The notes beneath the pieces are model-generated. The model had not been told where the DNA came from, made no database searches, and was given only the letters and a program-made list of their open reading frames with translations. Positions 3,930-37,166 of a stretch of 37,790 nucleotides of DNA are shown here, piece by piece (position 1 is the stretch's first letter; every line of letters starts with the position of its first letter). The stretch covers positions 62,001-99,790 of the forward strand of contig KZ538210.1 in assembly GCA_000934665.2 (NCBI GenBank). The letters run 5' to 3'. The stretch is from Catajapyx aquilonaris. Lineage: Eukaryota. A program made the translations under genes and the position numbers.

Positions 3930-4090
3930 ACTATTGGCTCCCCTGCCCCACGCTGACGTCATCTCATGACGGACCAAGCGGTGCTCCGAACACACCCACG
4001 GCGTCACTATTGGCACCCCTTCTCAAATGACGTCACCCCCCGTTTTTTATCCGCCCTTCAGAACGCACCTCCAGATGCGCGCGCATCTTC
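3930..4090 (+). promoter_or_regulatory. CpG-rich TDP-43 promoter with CRE, CCAAT and NRF1-like motifs
   Basis: TGACGTCA at 3954-3961 and 4028-4035; ATTGG near 3934 and 4009; palindrome GATGCGCGCGCATC at about 4074-4087; all upstream of the first TDP-43 exon. Confidence 0.6.
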
Positions 4091-4164: not shown

Positions 4165-4183
4165 NNNNNNNNNNNNNNNNNNN
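4165..4183. other. Assembly gap (N run) in a poly-C tract
   Basis: N characters in the sequence. Confidence 0.95.
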
Positions 4184-4435
4184 CCCCCTCCAAAAGTGGC
4201 GTCTGTTCCCTCCATCCAGATTCGGGAATCGGGAGTTCCTCCCCACCCCTGCCTGCCTCTTCTCTCTTCCCCGTTCCCCTCCCCCACACCCCGATCCTCC
4301 CGATCCCCTAAAAAAGAATTAGTGATCCTGCGGAGCTTGTATGTACAGCGGACCACTGGGAGCGCGTGAAAAAAGGTGGCGACCTGCCCCGAACTGGCGG
4401 TGGGACGAGGGCCTGACCCTCTGAAGGGTGAGAGC

Positions 4436-4467
<32 letters not shown>

Positions 4468-4573
4468 AGAGCTGCAGCACGAGGAGGAGGAAGAGGAGGA
4501 GGAGGAGGAGGAGGAGGGCAGCCCCGGGGCAGCGGAGGCGGAGGCTGCTGAGGTTGGTGGTGGTGGCCCCGAG

Positions 4574-7500
4574 ATGAGTTCGTACATCCAGGTGGCGGAG
4601 GAGGAAGGGGAAGAGCCCATCGAGCTGCCCACTGAGGATGATGGCACCCTGCTGCTTTCAACGCTGGCCGCACAGTTCCCTGGGACCTCCGGGCTCAAGT
4701 ACAGGAACCCGGAGTCTAGGGCCATGCGGGGAGTGCGCTTGGTGGACGGGAGGTTCCACTCGCCGGAGACCGGCTGGGGGAATGTCGTCTACTACTGCGT
4801 CTTCCCTAAAGGTATTGCCACGTAGAGGACACGTAGGCCTAGTCCAAGGATAGCCGTAGTTGCTTTGGCTCCTTAACCTGAACGTAAGCCTAGTACAAGT
4901 TGGAGTAGTGTATGGGTGTTGTGCAGCATGAGGAAGACGCAACAACCTTAGCGAACTTGGCCAAACACTGTCATGGAAATTATGTGTCCAAAATTGGGAA
5001 AGATTGATGTATAGACAGAGATGAGATGACGCTCATATGGAGTGCAAGTGCTCATGACCTTGAAACAAAGAATTTGCCTCGACCAATTAGAAATGTGGCG
5101 CTGTGCTTGTCGCTGGACCACATATCCTACGTGCATCATTTTTGTCAATACAAATTGCCATGCGAAGCTACGACATGACTGTCACTTCATATAAATGTGT
5201 CCTAAGATGCACAGGACATGTTGTTGCAGTCGTGATCACAACATTAGAGGCTCATTCACATGTAGCTGAATTTGGGACTCGCAGGTGAATATTGCACCCA
5301 AACATTACTGCATTCAAGGGTCATGATGCGGAAAGATCCATGTGAATGAGTTTGAACTGTTAAGGTGTGAGTCCCAAATTGGTCAATAAGTGAATTGAGC
5401 TAGACATTGATGAATAGAATGTGTGATGCCTGCTGCATGCCTTTTGTATACACACAAAAATCCTGACAAGTTCTTTGATATGAACATTTATAATTATAAA
5501 AATATACTGAATCTGAATACCTGGTGTAGCACTTGGGTCACTCGGCCTATCTGAATGTTAGCTATTGCCAGTAGAAATTAGTGGCTGACAATGGGGGAGA
5601 CATGTAGATAAGCAGTGATCTGATCAGTTCCAGGTAGGATAGCATCCTGCATAGGTTTCTGTCTGCCATGACTTGTTAATGCTAATTTTTTTCATGTCCT
5701 TTCCATGTATGCAGGGAGATTAGCTAGATTGATAGGTTGGTGAAGGACTGCATTATTTTTAAATTCCATTGTAAATATTTTTCCTTCGACCCGTGAAATT
5801 CCTCAGATTAACCTTTTACGATGATTAGCCATAATCTTGTATTTGTGACCATTTTGTGAGGAACATTACCGGCTCAGGTTGTCCAACTGGAGTTCTGAGA
5901 TTGGGGAAATGAGTATGCTACAATCGCTACCATTGAACTGTTGCTAATTCCTCAGATAAATTTTGCTGGATATTGCTACTAATTGATTTCATGAATGCAT
6001 TGCTGTGTCATTGTGGATTTAGGTTTTAGGCTAGGCTATGAGGTTATTGCTATTCGGTGAAGCATATAGTATTGCCAATGAGGTGGATGATGTAGGTTAC
6101 ATTGTTAATTATAATGCGTTCATAAAGACAGCTGTTGAACAGATATGTCAGCTAGGCATTACTTTGCACAACAGTGGTATATTTGTTATAGCTGTTAATT
6201 AAAACATAGATGATGCAATACAAAATTAATAGTGAAAAATTCAGCCATTAAATGTGGCACAAAACATGATTTAGATTGAGAGTGTAATGCCAAGAATGTA
6301 CGGAATTGTTTTGCCAGAAATCCTCTGCAATGGTATTCAGCAACACAGTAGCAAGTATGTGTGCATAGATTTTTTTCTTTATGTTTTGATGATTGCTTGC
6401 CATACATTCACTCTGGAACATGAATGAATGTTGGTTTTGTGTGCTTTTTGTGGCATGCATGTCACCATGAAAGTATTTTAAAATTGTTGTTTTTCACTTC
6501 AGAGAACAAGCGAAAGTCGGATGACCACCTTGAAAACTCAACAGCAAAAACGAAGCGAATGGAAACCAAGCAGAAGTGTTCAGACCTTATAGTCTTAGGA
6601 CTGCCATGGAAGACGACAGAGCAGCAGCTGAGAGAATACTTTGAATCCTTCGGAGAGGTTTTAATGGCACAAGTAAGTTACATTTGGAACACTGCCATAT
6701 TCTAATTTGCTGTCATTTTTTTTAGCATCAATTTGTTCTTGTAATTCCTTGATTTCTTCAACAGGTCAAAAAAGATCCAAAAACAGGCCAGTCAAAAGGT
6801 TTTGGTTTCATACGATTTGCCAACTACGAATCACAGATGCGTGTCTTGGCACAGAGGCACATGATTGACGGGAGATGGTGTGACGTGAAGATCCCCAACT
6901 CAAAGGTAACACCCATTTAAACTGTAGGTCATATTTGGCATAGTGTGATACACCATAAGAACAAGTGCATAATTTTATTAGTGCATGGCTCTTAAAAAAA
7001 AAAAATGCTGAATCACACTTGTTAGTGAGTCTAAATCAACAATCCCTACCATTGAAAATTGTTGAGCACTAATGTTCATTTGCCTTACTTCCTTTGGCTT
7101 TTGTTGCTGTGTGTGAAATCCCTTTTCATGCCTTTAACAAGAATCATAACAATATCTGCACGTGCTATTCTTTTGTAGGATAAGTGACATGTAATTTGTT
7201 TTTTTCCTTCTGTGTTTCCTGGGTAGTTCTCTTGTTACAAAAAAAAAAAAATTTAAGTGTTCCAATGGTGCAAAATGCTTATCTCTGCACAAAGATGTTA
7301 ATATTTTTGCCTTCTTTGGAGAAACCAGGGGTATTTCAATGACAAGTACCATTGTAATTGTCATTAGAAGTAATTGAGGAGGCTGTATCATCGTGACTGT
7401 TGTGTAAGTGCAAGGCCTTCTAGATTTGAGGAATGAGAAAAGAAGACAGGTATGCATGATTGTTCATGTGTGATTTATTGCATGCGAAAAGTTATTATCA

Positions 7501-10163
7501 AATTATTATTTAATTCCTTCCTGCTTCCCTACCTTGCTAATGTGTTCAAATCAATTTTCAATCCCTTTGTCAAGCTTATTTGAGGAGTGTCATTTGAAAG
7601 AGACCTAAGAAAGTGCAGAGTTGTACTAATTAGGGACAAGTGGCATGTTGAGAGTGCGTGTATGGAGAAAGAGACAAGGAGAGTGTGTGTGATGTCGTAA
7701 ACTGGAGCAGGTGTGAATTTTTATGTTGTTGTCCGTTACTTTCGGAGAAGATGGGAGAAGTGAGTTCTCGATTTAGAGAAATTATTTACGCAACTGTGCG
7801 ATTGACTGCTGGTAGCAACGCAAAGGAGTATGTGAGGACGTGAAGGAAGTGGTGATCATGTGAGAGAGGAACAGTGTGTGTGGGAACTTGTGTGGATGAT
7901 TTTTGTCAAATTTGGGACACCCATGTGCTCCACTGAAGGATAAATAAATAAAGAAAGCATGAGGAATTTGTGGCGAAGAATGGAAGGAAAAATACTGACG
8001 CTTTGAAAGAGGGAAGTACGGCAATGCCCCACAGACATTTGTACTAGTTAACTTGTTAGAACAACATTTTGTTTTTGTATACCTGGCCAAGTTGCTCAGA
8101 AATTATGTGGTGATGTTGATGGTGACGTGTCACTTGATTGCAGCTTGAATCCAGGAACCAAACACACTACAGAGTTCAATGTGGGATGCAGCATCAAGAT
8201 TTATATTGATCTCCTGCTTACCGGGGATGCAACTTGTGGAAAACGCTGTAAGTTCTGGAATTTTAATGCCGAATTGGCCGTTGGTTGGTTCTTTATTTTA
8301 TATGATTACATACCATATACATTTTCGTTTTTTGTATACACTGTATGGGTATGTTTCCAGGGCTTTTTTTTTTTTAGGTCCTACTTGCCCTTTTGTTGGG
8401 AATTTTTTTGTGGGATGAAAACTTGTGCTCCAGTTTGCGTTGAGTGAAAAAAAAAAGAAACATTGTCACTACTGTCCCTCAGAGGTTTTCAACATGTGTA
8501 TGTTGAGATGCTTCATCATTGTACTGTGTGACCACTCATGGCAGTGAGAGTGCTCTTTCATGATTTTGTTTTTGTAATGGCTTGACACAAGAGCGAATGT
8601 GTGACAGATCAACATTTCAAGGCCAAACATAAGCACAGTGGTAATGCAGTTGGTAAATATTTGCACCATTGGAATGTTCCAGTCCTAGAAGGGTTTCTTG
8701 GTTTTAACACGAAAAGTGCTGCATAATGATTAGAGAATTTCGTCTTATTGGGCCAGTGTGTGATTGAGCTCAAGGTTGACATGAGGGTCATTGTGCTGAG
8801 ATCAGCAAGAGGCAGTTAATGAAGAAGTGTGAAGGTGGGATCTTTCATATTGAGTGACATGGATAAAAGTTGAGTGTTATGCAGTACATTTCTTAGTTTC
8901 TGCTGCGCAGAGAAATTCCAACAGTCCTTAGCCAGAAAATATCGGTTTATTTTATTTATTTATTATTTATTTGCTTTGCCTGTTGTGCATGAGATGGAGT
9001 GTTTTTTTTTTCTTTACTATTATTTTGCACTAGTTGGACCAAACTTCTGTTCTTTTGAAAGTTCCACAAAAGGAGGGAATTATATAGGGGAGTGGCAACA
9101 CCACCAACTACAAACAAACAAAAAAAATGAAAAAGAAAGAAATCCCCGAGAAAAGAAGTGTCCTCGAGTAGCTCCAAGTTATCTTACCTTGCAGATGCCT
9201 GATTGGTCATGTTGCCCCTTACAGGAGGGACAGGTGCAGCAGGTCCCTTGCAAGGTGTTTGTGGGGCGCTGCACGGAAGACATGACCGCCGAGGACCTCC
9301 GTGAGTATTTCTCCAAGTTCGGTGAAGTGACAGACGTGTTCATCCCCAAGCCCTTCCGCGCATTTGCCTTTGTAACCTTCCTGGACCCCGAGGTGGCGCA
9401 GAGCTTGTGCGGGGAGGACCACATCATCAAGGGGGCCTCGGTGCACGTCAGCAATGCCGCCCCCAAGAGTGACCCAAATGCGAGGGGAGGGGGTGGGGGT
9501 GGGGGTTTTAATCGAGGGGGTGGTGGGGGTGGAGGAGGAGGCGGAGGTGGAGGAATGCGTGACCCAAAGGGAATGGGAGGTGGTGCTGGCTACACGCAGC
9601 ATTACAGTGGTGGAACTATGGGTGGGGCAGGTGGCGCTGGTTGGAACCAGGGTGGGTCCAGGGGCAGCCTTGACATGCCCAATTTGCAGACCCTGGGAAT
9701 AACTGGCAATTTGGGCCAGCCTGGCACCAGCGCTGGGAGTGGGAGCATGTCGAATCCATTGGGTATGGGTCCTCTTAACCTGGGCCTGCCCATGAATCCG
9801 GCTCTGGTGGCAGCTGCGCTGAACCAGGCAGGTTGGGGCCTCATTGGTAACCTGCAAGGAGGCCAGGGCCAGGCTGGGGCTGGGCAGGATGGCAGCCAGG
9901 CGTTTGGTAATCCGTCGGGGTTTGGAGCCACACCTAACAGTCACCAGCAGGCTGGTGCGGGGCCAGGGGGAGGGGGTGGGGGTAGTGCAGGTAAGGGTCA
10001 GGCCCCGGGTCAGGCAGCGGCGGGGAGTGGGTTTTTGGGATGGATGAATCAGGGAGGTGGGGCAGAAGGAGGGGCAGGAGGTCCAAACCCAACACCACCT
10101 CAGCAGGCAGGGTCATGGCCGCAGAGGGACAAAGGGGGAAACTTCCTCAAGTATGACATGTAA
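4574..10163 (+). CDS. TARDBP: TAR DNA-binding protein 43 (TDP-43/TBPH), 495 aa from the conserved ATG
   Basis: Exons 4574-4811, 6503-6672, 6765-6905 and 9225-10163 (1488 nt, in frame). [40 protein letters not shown]...KTKR; RRM1 [17 protein letters not shown]2 [14 protein letters not shown]; Gly-rich C-terminus with the [20 protein letters not shown] helix. Confidence 0.97.
5249..5401. mobile_element. Degenerate inverted-repeat element (MITE remnant) in TDP-43 intron 1
   Basis: GGCTCATTCACATGTAGCTGAATTTGGGACTCGCA pairs imperfectly with TGTGAGTCCCAAATTGGTCAATAAGTGAATTGAGC. Confidence 0.45.
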
Positions 10164-36501: not shown

Positions 36502-36949
36502 ATGGACATCAAGCAGAAGGTTCAGTGTGTGGAGTGGATGGTGAAGATGTCTGATGCGGAGAAGGTGCAGAAGGAATTTACCAAGGAGTTCAAGAAGGAT
36601 GCACCCTCTGAGACCTTCCTGGAGCACCTCATGGAAGCTTTCCGCAGCACTGGGTCCATTGTTGATGTGGAGGAGGAGGCTATGAATGGAAACGCTTCCA
36701 ATGATGAGGAGGAGGCGGCCCCTGCTGCCAAGGCCAAGCGTGGAGGAGGGGCTGCTAGGGGTGGAAAGGCTCGTCGTGGACGTGGAGCCCCAGCAGCTGG
36801 TGGGACCAAGGGCAGGCGCGGCAAGAAGGCTGCCAAGGAGGAGTCGGACGAAGGCGAGGATGAGGAAGAGAAGATGGACGATAAGTCTGAGGATGACAAT
36901 TTGGATGATATTGAGGAGAAATCGGAAGAGGAGGAGGAAGAGCCTAAGC
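36502..36949 (+). CDS. First coding exon of an uncharacterised nuclear-type protein: DUF4817/Tc1-mariner-like N-terminal HTH, RG-rich basic linker and acidic tract; continues right of the window
   Basis: Acceptor TCTTATTTTAG|ATG at 36501 and donor AAGC|GTAAGT at 36949/36950. MDIKQKVQCVEWMVKMSDAEKVQKEFTKEFKKDAPSETFLEHLMEAFRSTGSIVD fits the pattern K.qCV.W.....s...VQr.F...f...pPs...i..w...F..TGSv.d. Strong GAG/AAG codon bias. Confidence 0.8.
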
Positions 36950-37004
36950 GTAAGTGGTTGCATTGCAGCATATGTGGAATATGGTGTTCTGAATGTTGGG
37001 GGTA

Positions 37005-37166
37005 CAGCGTTGGACATTAATCGAGTCATACTGCTAGCGACATTTTCCAAAGTGGCAGAAGAACGAATCTTGCTCACATGGCTTGCACTATCCGTATCTT
37101 CGATTCGATCATCTACCGCTGTGGAAAATGTCGCTAGCAGTATAACTCGATTAATGTCCAACACTG
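37005..37166. mobile_element. Tc1/mariner-type MITE, 162 bp, TA target-site duplication
   Basis: TA|CAGCGTTGGACATTAATCGAGTCATACTGCTAGCGACATTTTCCA ... TGGAAAATGTCGCTAGCAGTATAACTCGATTAATGTCCAACACTG|TA. Confidence 0.9.

What the first reader, a model, noticed from the sequence alone, without database searches (positions are those of the whole stretch)
4367..4576. TDP-43 has a 66-codon in-frame poly-Glu N-terminal extension opened only by a GTG
Seen: upstream of the conserved ATG (4574) the frame is open back to TGA 4367-4369 with no ATG. It starts at AAG GTG GCG (4376; A at -3, G at +4, one base from the AAGATGGCG start of LPCAT3) and encodes (V/M)[20 protein letters not shown]12-LQH-E12[19 protein letters not shown]. 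The repeat mixes GAG and GAA and keeps frame across the CTG CAG CAC interruption, as coding sequence would. Inference: non-AUG initiation yields a long isoform with a highly acidic arm beside the oligomerising NTD, which could alter solubility or phase separation.
Basis: partly seen in the sequence, partly recalled or inferred. Interest (0 to 1): 0.72.

Follow-up and report, generated by a model that had tools for sequence, protein, structure and literature searches.

The report
Glutamate-repeat leader before arthropod TDP-43
Just in front of an arthropod's TDP-43 gene lies a transcribed stretch that could be read as a 66-residue acidic arm but has no normal start codon; it is more likely an untranslated repeat-rich leader or a decayed former extension than a working non-AUG isoform, which remains possible but unshown.

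Summary
In detail: the frame is open from TGA 4367 to ATG 4574, has no ATG, GTG at 4376, and reads E12-LQH-E12. DNA contigs of the probable source sample agree on GTG and A6. A spliced contig from another sample probably includes the second Glu run.

For coding: 17 of 27 other such GAG/GAA runs in this genome sit in long Glu frames, and the non-repeat flanks lean to the TDP-43 frame (p=0.03).

Against: an open frame is cheap here (0.34 with the repeat kept). No homologue carries the arm. The GTG context is no commoner than the TTG one. CTG 4394 is as good a start, and no hairpin follows. TDP-43 leaders of other animals hold unrelated triplet runs, one reading poly-Glu out of frame. GUG gives about 6% of AUG (PMC5714202).

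Odds: untranslated leader 0.5; functional non-AUG isoform 0.22; decayed ATG-opened extension, as Trichogramma still has, 0.2. No close relative, TSS or ribosome data were available.

The parts
4341..4424 (+). Out-of-frame uORF (27 codons) from ATG 4341, weak context (T at -3, T at +4), overlapping the GTG; whether it is transcribed is unknown
4367..4369 (+). In-frame TGA that bounds the open frame; followed by the A6 run 4369-4374
   Evidence: identical in X1 and X2 contigs
4376..4378 (+). 5'-most in-frame near-cognate with a good context, GTG (A -3, G +4)
   Evidence: G confirmed in contigs
4394..4396 (+). In-frame CTG in a good context (G -3, G +4), an equally plausible non-AUG start; GTG 4400 likewise
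4376..4435 (+). 5' non-repeat part of the open frame (20 codons); weak frame signal on its own (p=0.17)
4436..4516 (+). Compound GAG/GAA triplet repeat: E12 (4436-4471), CTG CAG CAC (4472-4480), E12 (4481-4516)
4517..4573 (+). 3' non-repeat part (19 codons, 16 start with G; p=0.036). 4557-4573 is read unspliced in the RNA-derived contig, and about 4488-4556 is inferred to be in it
4574..4811 (+). Conserved ATG and first coding exon: TDP-43 N-terminal domain (PF18694)
   Evidence: joint in X5
6503..6672 (+). Coding exon 2 (NLS region, start of RRM1)
6765..6905 (+). Coding exon 3 (rest of RRM1)
9225..10163 (+). Coding exon 4 (RRM2 and Gly-rich tail); canonical protein 495 aa. The join to exon 3 is by homology and was outside the stretch laid with reads

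Best explanation
The stretch is the exonic 5' leader of a single-copy, canonical TDP-43 gene, in which GAG/GAA and other G-rich triplets have expanded by slippage. Because such repeats lack T, they make long open, protein-looking frames; here the Glu reading happens to match the TDP-43 frame. How it works (inferred unless marked): the transcript carries at least the second Glu run in exon 1 (partly shown). The scanning ribosome crosses an unstructured purine-rich leader (shown in silico). It mostly passes the weak out-of-frame ATG 4341 (if that is transcribed) and the GTG/CTG codons, and starts at ATG 4574 to make the 495-aa protein (exons shown). Leaky starts at GTG 4376 or CTG 4394 may give a few percent of an extended form, as for any near-cognate in a good context, without this being a selected function.
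For: An open frame arises in 0.34 of shuffles that keep the repeat. 113 of the best 120 full-length homologues and 88 of the best 120 fragments start within 3 residues of the same Met; none carries this arm (these are 120 of 343 and 120 of 332 hits). Of the best 150 of 732 representatives, 5 match from before query residue 50, and none has a poly-Glu arm. In one other animal lineage (NTDs identical at 55-56 of 61 residues), three TDP-43 leaders carry three unrelated triplet runs. L047's GAG run reads poly-Glu out of frame (21 of 33 codons start with G, 0 with T, 12 Glu), with an in-frame TGA 3 codons before its ATG. L037's leader is open in frame for 107 codons without ATG. Among the first 100 of 243 AAAGNTGGCGAC sites, GTG 19 = TTG 19, CTG 13, ATG 49 (counted by hand). 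All 9 other GTG sites fetched open 30 codons or fewer, and 10 of the 11 ATG sites open 35 or fewer, so the motif is a poor marker of starts. No stable structure follows the GTG (z +1.37; 182 of 200 shuffles fold as well). GUG in Kozak context gave about 6% of AUG in HEK293FT cells, with low rates also in fly S2 cells (PMC5714202, passages).
Against: In this genome such runs are mostly in long Glu frames (17 of 27; judged by frame length and look, not confirmed as genes). The flanks alone favour the TDP-43 frame: p=0.03. Only 2.7-8.5% of 840 presumed non-coding windows and 5.6-11% of the 126 with GC of 50% or more score as high. The window's flanks score above 7 of 8 (order 2) or 6 of 8 (order 1) short-frame repeat loci and inside the range of the long-frame ones. 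Its in-frame bias (50 of 66 codons start with G, 1 with T) is stronger than in any of the four foreign leaders measured. Only 2 of 44 other TDP-43 loci are open 60 codons or more upstream (27 had enough DNA). The other two frames carry 3 and 1 stops in the same 198 bases.
Confidence: 0.5

Rival explanations
1. Functional non-AUG isoform. Leaky scanning starts a selected share of ribosomes at GTG 4376 (or CTG 4394). This gives a 561-aa (or 555-aa) TDP-43 with a disordered arm of 31 D/E and 2 K/R next to the NTD. The arm would screen the basic head face (R52/R55) and cap or shorten head-to-tail oligomers, lowering condensation and splicing repression.
For: Coding-like frame bias and genome base rate. 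Good Kozak context and bracketing by an upstream in-frame stop, as in most known cases (PMC3105428, passages). No out-of-frame ATG between GTG and ATG 4574, so leaky scanning would give both forms. The second Glu run is probably in the mRNA. E17, E21, R52 and R55, the human interface residues (PMC5491494, passages), are invariant in the 30-sequence alignment that includes this protein. Arm charge.
Against: No homologue of the arm. The GTG context is not enriched. No downstream hairpin. The GCCGCC enhancer of strong GUG starts (PMC5714202) is absent: the -9..-4 bases are CGTGAA. The overlapping uORF from ATG 4341 would divert some ribosomes if it is transcribed. In the 5MDI crystal the NTD polymerised with an unresolved N-terminal His-tag (21 extra residues), so extra N-terminal residues as such need not block assembly.
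Confidence: 0.22
2. Decayed ATG-opened extension. The lineage once had an ATG-started low-complexity N-terminal arm, as Trichogramma wasps still do. The start was lost by ATG to GTG at 4376 (or by a one-base loss in the A run that uncoupled ATG 4341). The codon pattern is a relic, and today's main product is the canonical protein.
For: It explains the coding-like pattern without needing efficient GUG use. AAGGTGGCG is one transition from the neighbour gene's AAGATGGCG start. Three Trichogramma species have annotated ATG-opened 128-131-aa low-complexity extensions that align with gaps but stay in frame. Another lineage has ATG-opened Gly-rich arms of different lengths (L037, L047, L048).
Against: No relative with the ATG form was found, and no close relative was available at all (best NTD identity 89%). 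The 4316-4375 segment shows no frame signal in the ATG-4341 frame (score -7.6), which speaks against the A-run version. AAAGATGGCGAC mostly does not open long frames in this genome.
Confidence: 0.2
3. The arm is translated from an upstream ATG by another route: a spliced-in ATG exon, a -1 frameshift from the ATG 4341 uORF at the A run, read-through of TGA 4367, or an allele or assembly difference at 4376 or A6.
For: Alternative splicing is the largest class of coding-like 5' extensions in human (PMC3105428, section 10). ATG 4341 is one base out of step with the frame. Contigs cannot exclude a heterozygous allele.
Against: No AG after the TGA resembles this gene's four acceptors (all CAG, T fraction 0.35-0.65). 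The in-phase candidates are AAG or GAG, or a CAG in a purine run, with T fraction 0.29 or less. The RNA-derived contig reads 4557-4573 unspliced. A_AAA_AGG is not an X_XXY_YYZ slippery site (established knowledge) and no stem follows. The in-frame stretch upstream of the TGA has no Met outside a 19-N gap. X1 and X2 contigs match the assembly.
Confidence: 0.08

Closest known systems
TDP-43/TBPH family (PF18694 NTD + two RRMs + Gly-rich tail; human NTD structures 5MDI, 6B1G, 6T4B)
   Same: Full domain order, 495 aa; residues 1-262 are 91.6-92% identical to the closest orthopteran proteins; NTD aligns to human 1-79 without gaps; interface residues kept.
   Different: A 68-codon open, Glu-repeat frame before the conserved Met, not seen in any homologue listed.
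[quoted passage not shown] 2011, PMC3105428; e.g. GUG-started HDGF, EIF4G2/NAT1)
   Same: In-frame, bracketed by an upstream stop, near-cognate in good context, no out-of-frame AUG between it and the main AUG; length 66 against medians of 51 and 65 codons.
   Different: Those cases are defined by cross-species conservation and purifying selection, which could not be tested here; no downstream structure and no GCCGCC enhancer.
Trichogramma TDP-43 with long N-terminal extension (XP_014238144.1, CAB0038849.1, KAL7303250.1)
   Same: Lineage-specific low-complexity, repeat-rich arm fused to the same conserved Met.
   Different: ATG-opened, kept in three species, Ser/Thr/Ala/Gln-rich and unrelated in sequence; annotation only, no experiment seen.
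Triplet-repeat-rich TDP-43 leaders of another animal lineage (L037, L047, L048)
   Same: GC-rich triplet runs directly before the ATG; one reads poly-Glu, one is open for 107 codons without ATG.
   Different: The poly-Glu reading there is out of frame and closed by a TGA; the in-frame bias is weaker than in the window.

Membership tests
TDP-43/TBPH | TDP-43 N-terminal domain at the N-terminus | tested here: met
   PF18694 E 1.2e-34, full profile 1-74; PDB NTDs E about 1e-31
TDP-43/TBPH | Two RRMs followed by a Gly-rich tail with the conserved hydrophobic helix segment | tested here: met
   RRM_1 hits in exons 2+3 and in exon 4; joined protein with Gly-rich tail and ALVAAALNQ segment (the role of that segment is recalled)
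Conserved non-AUG N-terminal extension | Open in-frame region without AUG, bounded by an upstream stop | tested here: met
Conserved non-AUG N-terminal extension | Near-cognate codon in good Kozak context | tested here: met
   GTG 4376 (A-3, G+4); also CTG 4394 and GTG 4400. Not discriminating: the same context with GTG is as common as with TTG genome-wide
Conserved non-AUG N-terminal extension | The codon lies in the mRNA (TSS upstream, no splice that removes it) | tested here: inconclusive
   Spliced contig X5 covers 4557 onward and probably from about 4488; nothing can be said for 4376
Conserved non-AUG N-terminal extension | Frame and start codon conserved, purifying selection across species | tested here: inconclusive
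   No homologue of the arm among the listed hits or 53 loci, but no close relative was available (best NTD identity 89%)
Conserved non-AUG N-terminal extension | Stimulatory RNA structure about 15 nt downstream (supportive, not obligatory) | tested here: not met
   4330-4600 folds worse than the shuffle mean, z +1.37
Conserved non-AUG N-terminal extension | Ribosome footprints or protein evidence | not testable with these tools
   no raw RNA reads, Ribo-seq or proteome for this organism among the 5 runs listed

The most novel reading that the evidence does not exclude
This arthropod makes, by GUG/CUG initiation, a second TDP-43 with a roughly -29 net-charge disordered arm beside the oligomerising domain. 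It acts as a natural, tunable chain-capper or solubility module that sets the length of TDP-43 head-to-tail oligomers and its condensation. The searches run here found no paper describing a non-AUG-extended TDP-43 in any animal.
Probability: 0.2. Interest if true: 0.6.

Novelty: new member of a known kind. Interest (0 to 1): 0.3.

Why it matters
Under the favoured reading it matters little: it is a repeat-rich leader, and a caution that T-free triplet runs mimic coding extensions. If the extended isoform is real, it would be a natural experiment on a disease-relevant protein. Human TDP-43 function depends on electrostatic head-to-tail NTD polymers (PMC5491494, passages), and solubility tags delay its assembly (PMC13266287, passages). 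An evolved acidic arm made by non-AUG initiation would show that animals tune TDP-43 assembly through start-codon choice. Either way, the comparison shows that the TDP-43 N-terminus has gained low-complexity arms independently in at least two other lineages.

Tried and rejected
No RNA holder was listed by the run search; this is not evidence on expression. X5, of unrecorded kind, proved to be spliced. X5 has no piece on 4190-4424; this is not evidence about the TSS. The tool skips 4425-4556 as repeat. 4 of the 5 listed runs were laid (X4 was not). The loose end of an X2 contig before 4295 maps to another C-rich contig (C872) and X1 runs through colinearly, so it was read as a contig misjoin, not a misassembly of the window. 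L084 first looked like the same architecture with a true ATG. It lies at a contig end behind what looks like a tRNA-derived element (by eye) and had no Pfam hit, so it was dropped as support. A shared GT(G)AAAA leader motif in arthropod TDP-43 loci: 5 of 18 against 2.3 expected, not convincing. A second AAAAGTGGCG at 4196 is in frame but upstream of the TGA. Stop read-through, -1 frameshift and a spliced-in ATG were considered (rival 3). Pfam on 64 ORFs of 9 short or ambiguous repeat loci gave 1 hit and did not tell whether non-coding GAG runs favour leaders. The bacterial promoter scan was not applicable. A literature search for insect 5' UTR triplet enrichment returned 0 papers, so that enrichment is not cited. 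Errors corrected: the held-out exon 4 control was in the wrong frame (redone; the flank p-values do not depend on it); exon borders were off by one (redone).

Full report
Locus. The window holds an MBOAT gene on the minus strand (LPCAT3 by recall), then TDP-43 on the plus strand, then spermidine synthase, Nup205 and TAF1A on the minus strand. TDP-43 is single copy in the 286-Mb assembly. It has four coding exons (4574-4811, 6503-6672, 6765-6905, 9225-10163) that give 495 aa with NTD, two RRMs and a Gly-rich tail. Residues 1-262 are about 92% identical to orthopteran TDP-43. The host is an arthropod with no close relative in the databases searched; I did not identify it.

Observation. All stated facts are in the sequence. 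Two additions: other in-frame near-cognates in good context (CTG 4394, GTG 4400), and an out-of-frame ATG at 4341 opening a 27-codon uORF over the GTG. Contigs of two DNA runs of one sample, possibly the source, cover 4295-4424 with no difference, so G4376 and A6 stand; a rare allele cannot be excluded.

Is it transcribed? Run X5 (other sample and study) gave one 1007-letter contig spliced at both expected GT..AG joints, so it derives from RNA. It reads 4557-4809 unspliced, which rules out an acceptor directly before the ATG for this molecule. It has 69 further letters before 4557, in the stretch that the tool skips. Three DNA contigs break 68 letters before the same place. I infer the same graph break in the second Glu run, so the mRNA probably includes about 4488-4573. 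Nothing shows whether 4376 is transcribed.

Is it more than chance? Openness is not: 0.16 of 5000 dinucleotide shuffles, and 0.34 with the repeat kept. The codon pattern is, modestly. A 3-periodic model trained on about 2000 codons of the window's other genes gives the two non-repeat flanks together p=0.03 in the TDP-43 frame (0.17 for the 5' flank, 0.036 for the 3' flank). 2.7-8.5% of 840 presumed non-coding windows, and 5.6-11% of 126 GC-rich ones, score as high. The genome holds 29 copies of (GAG)3GAA(GAG)3, against 12 and 10 of the two non-synonymous interruptions. Of the 27 other loci (L085 dropped as the same place as L084), 17 lie in Glu frames of 150 codons or more. With L079 and L084 left out for short flanks, the window's flanks score inside the range of those 17 (10 higher, 7 lower, order 2) and above 7 of the 8 short-frame loci (6 of 8 at order 1). 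The short-frame loci are not matched for GC.

Is it conserved? No trace was found. 113 of the best 120 long homologues (of 343) and 88 of the best 120 fragments (of 332) start within 3 residues of the same Met. The longer starts are unrelated to the arm and mostly to each other; several bee-type ones look like one leader read in different frames. Five of the best 150 representatives (of 732) match from before residue 50, none with poly-Glu. In 44 TDP-43 loci from metagenome contigs (54 found; 1 partial and 9 duplicates dropped) the median upstream open frame is 9 codons and 2 reach 60. The best NTD identity is 89%, so a lineage-specific arm would not be seen. Two comparisons cut opposite ways. 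Three Trichogramma species have an annotated ATG-opened low-complexity arm of 128-131 aa, so such arms do evolve on TDP-43. In another lineage, three related leaders carry unrelated triplet runs: L047 reads poly-Glu out of frame with a TGA 3 codons before the ATG, and L037 is open 107 codons in frame without ATG. So leaders of this gene can mimic coding sequence. The window's in-frame bias (50 of 66 G-first, 1 T-first) is stronger than theirs.

Is the GTG special? Not evidently. In the first 100 of 243 AAAGNTGGCGAC sites, ATG 49, GTG 19, TTG 19, CTG 13 (hand count). Of 30 fetched, the 9 GTG sites open 30 codons or fewer, and 10 of the 11 ATG sites open 35 or fewer (short first exons are not excluded). 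The likeness to the neighbour's start is therefore weak evidence. No stable fold follows. Tang et al. report GUG at about 6% of AUG in Kozak context, low rates in S2 cells too, and a GCCGCC element for strong GUG starts (PMC5714202, passages; first author recalled); that element is absent here. Ivanov et al. (first author recalled) list five routes to coding-like 5' extensions (PMC3105428, passages and section 10). Splicing lacks a fitting acceptor after the TGA; read-through lacks an upstream in-frame Met; frameshifting lacks a canonical slippery site and a stem.

Mechanism and odds. My rough weighing, which is inference: the coding-like pattern raises the odds of a coding origin some tens-fold over a low prior for ATG-less extensions, leaving it near even. 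I give 0.5 to an untranslated exonic leader with at most background leaky initiation, 0.22 to a functional GUG/CUG isoform, 0.2 to a decayed ATG-opened arm, and 0.08 to splice, frameshift or allele. If made, the arm (31 D/E, 2 K/R) would sit beside an NTD whose polymer depends on an acidic tail face (E17/E21) and a basic head face (R52/R55) (PMC5491494, passages). These residues are invariant here. Competition for the basic face is the likeliest effect; it is untested, and tagged NTDs still polymerise in the crystal.

Literature. Eight searches ran. Those aimed at the claim (34: TDP-43 + non-AUG + N-terminal extension, 9 papers; 51: 3 papers; 69: 1 paper) showed, by listing and abstract start only, no report of a non-AUG-extended TDP-43. 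The library lacks most subscription papers. PMC13266287 was read in passages. The scan's own notes held no earlier report of this feature.

Verdict. Real sequence feature, coding-like beyond chance but only modestly, translation unshown. It is a reasonable candidate for a cheap test, not a discovery. Interest 0.3.

Noticed in passing
window 6905 joined to 8144-8209: The spliced X5 contig continues from exon 3 not to exon 4 but into 8144 (CAG acceptor at 8143). This alternative exon adds 21 codons and a stop: a 204-aa product with NTD and RRM1 only. Many insect homologues also have a different tail after IPNSK/VPNSK. It may be a short isoform or an autoregulatory poison exon; one contig only.
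   Followed up: partly
P0004, P0370, P0372 (Trichogramma): Three Trichogramma species share an ATG-opened 128-131-aa Ser/Thr/Ala/Gln-rich N-terminal extension on TDP-43 that stays in frame despite repeat-length changes; no paper on it turned up.
   Followed up: partly
L037, L047, L048-L050: An unnamed animal lineage has ATG-opened Gly-rich TDP-43 N-termini of different lengths; in L048-L050 the arm appears split by a short intron (read by eye).
   Followed up: partly
P0241, P0242, P0243: Proteins with two tandem TDP-43 N-terminal domains (2 matched stretches): possible NTD-duplicated paralogues that could cross-link or cap oligomers.
   Followed up: no
window 3930-4040: Two CCAAT boxes (ATTGG) and two TGACGTCA elements form a likely proximal promoter 300-450 bases upstream of the GTG (read; motif names recalled); a strong acceptor-like CAG lies at 4219.
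   Followed up: no
window 4165-4183 and 31119-31140: Short N runs inside poly-C and poly-G tracts in two GC-rich upstream regions; reading frames across them are unreliable.
   Followed up: no
window 36502-37020: Exon for a DUF4817 helix-turn-helix protein with an acidic and basic low-complexity tail; its ATG directly follows an acceptor, which suggests a non-coding first exon.
   Followed up: no
L013, L016-L018, L020-L032: Many arthropod TDP-43 leaders carry GTGT/GTGA repeats, which resemble the UG-rich RNA that TDP-43 binds (recalled): possible 5' autoregulation. The window's leader lacks them.
   Followed up: no
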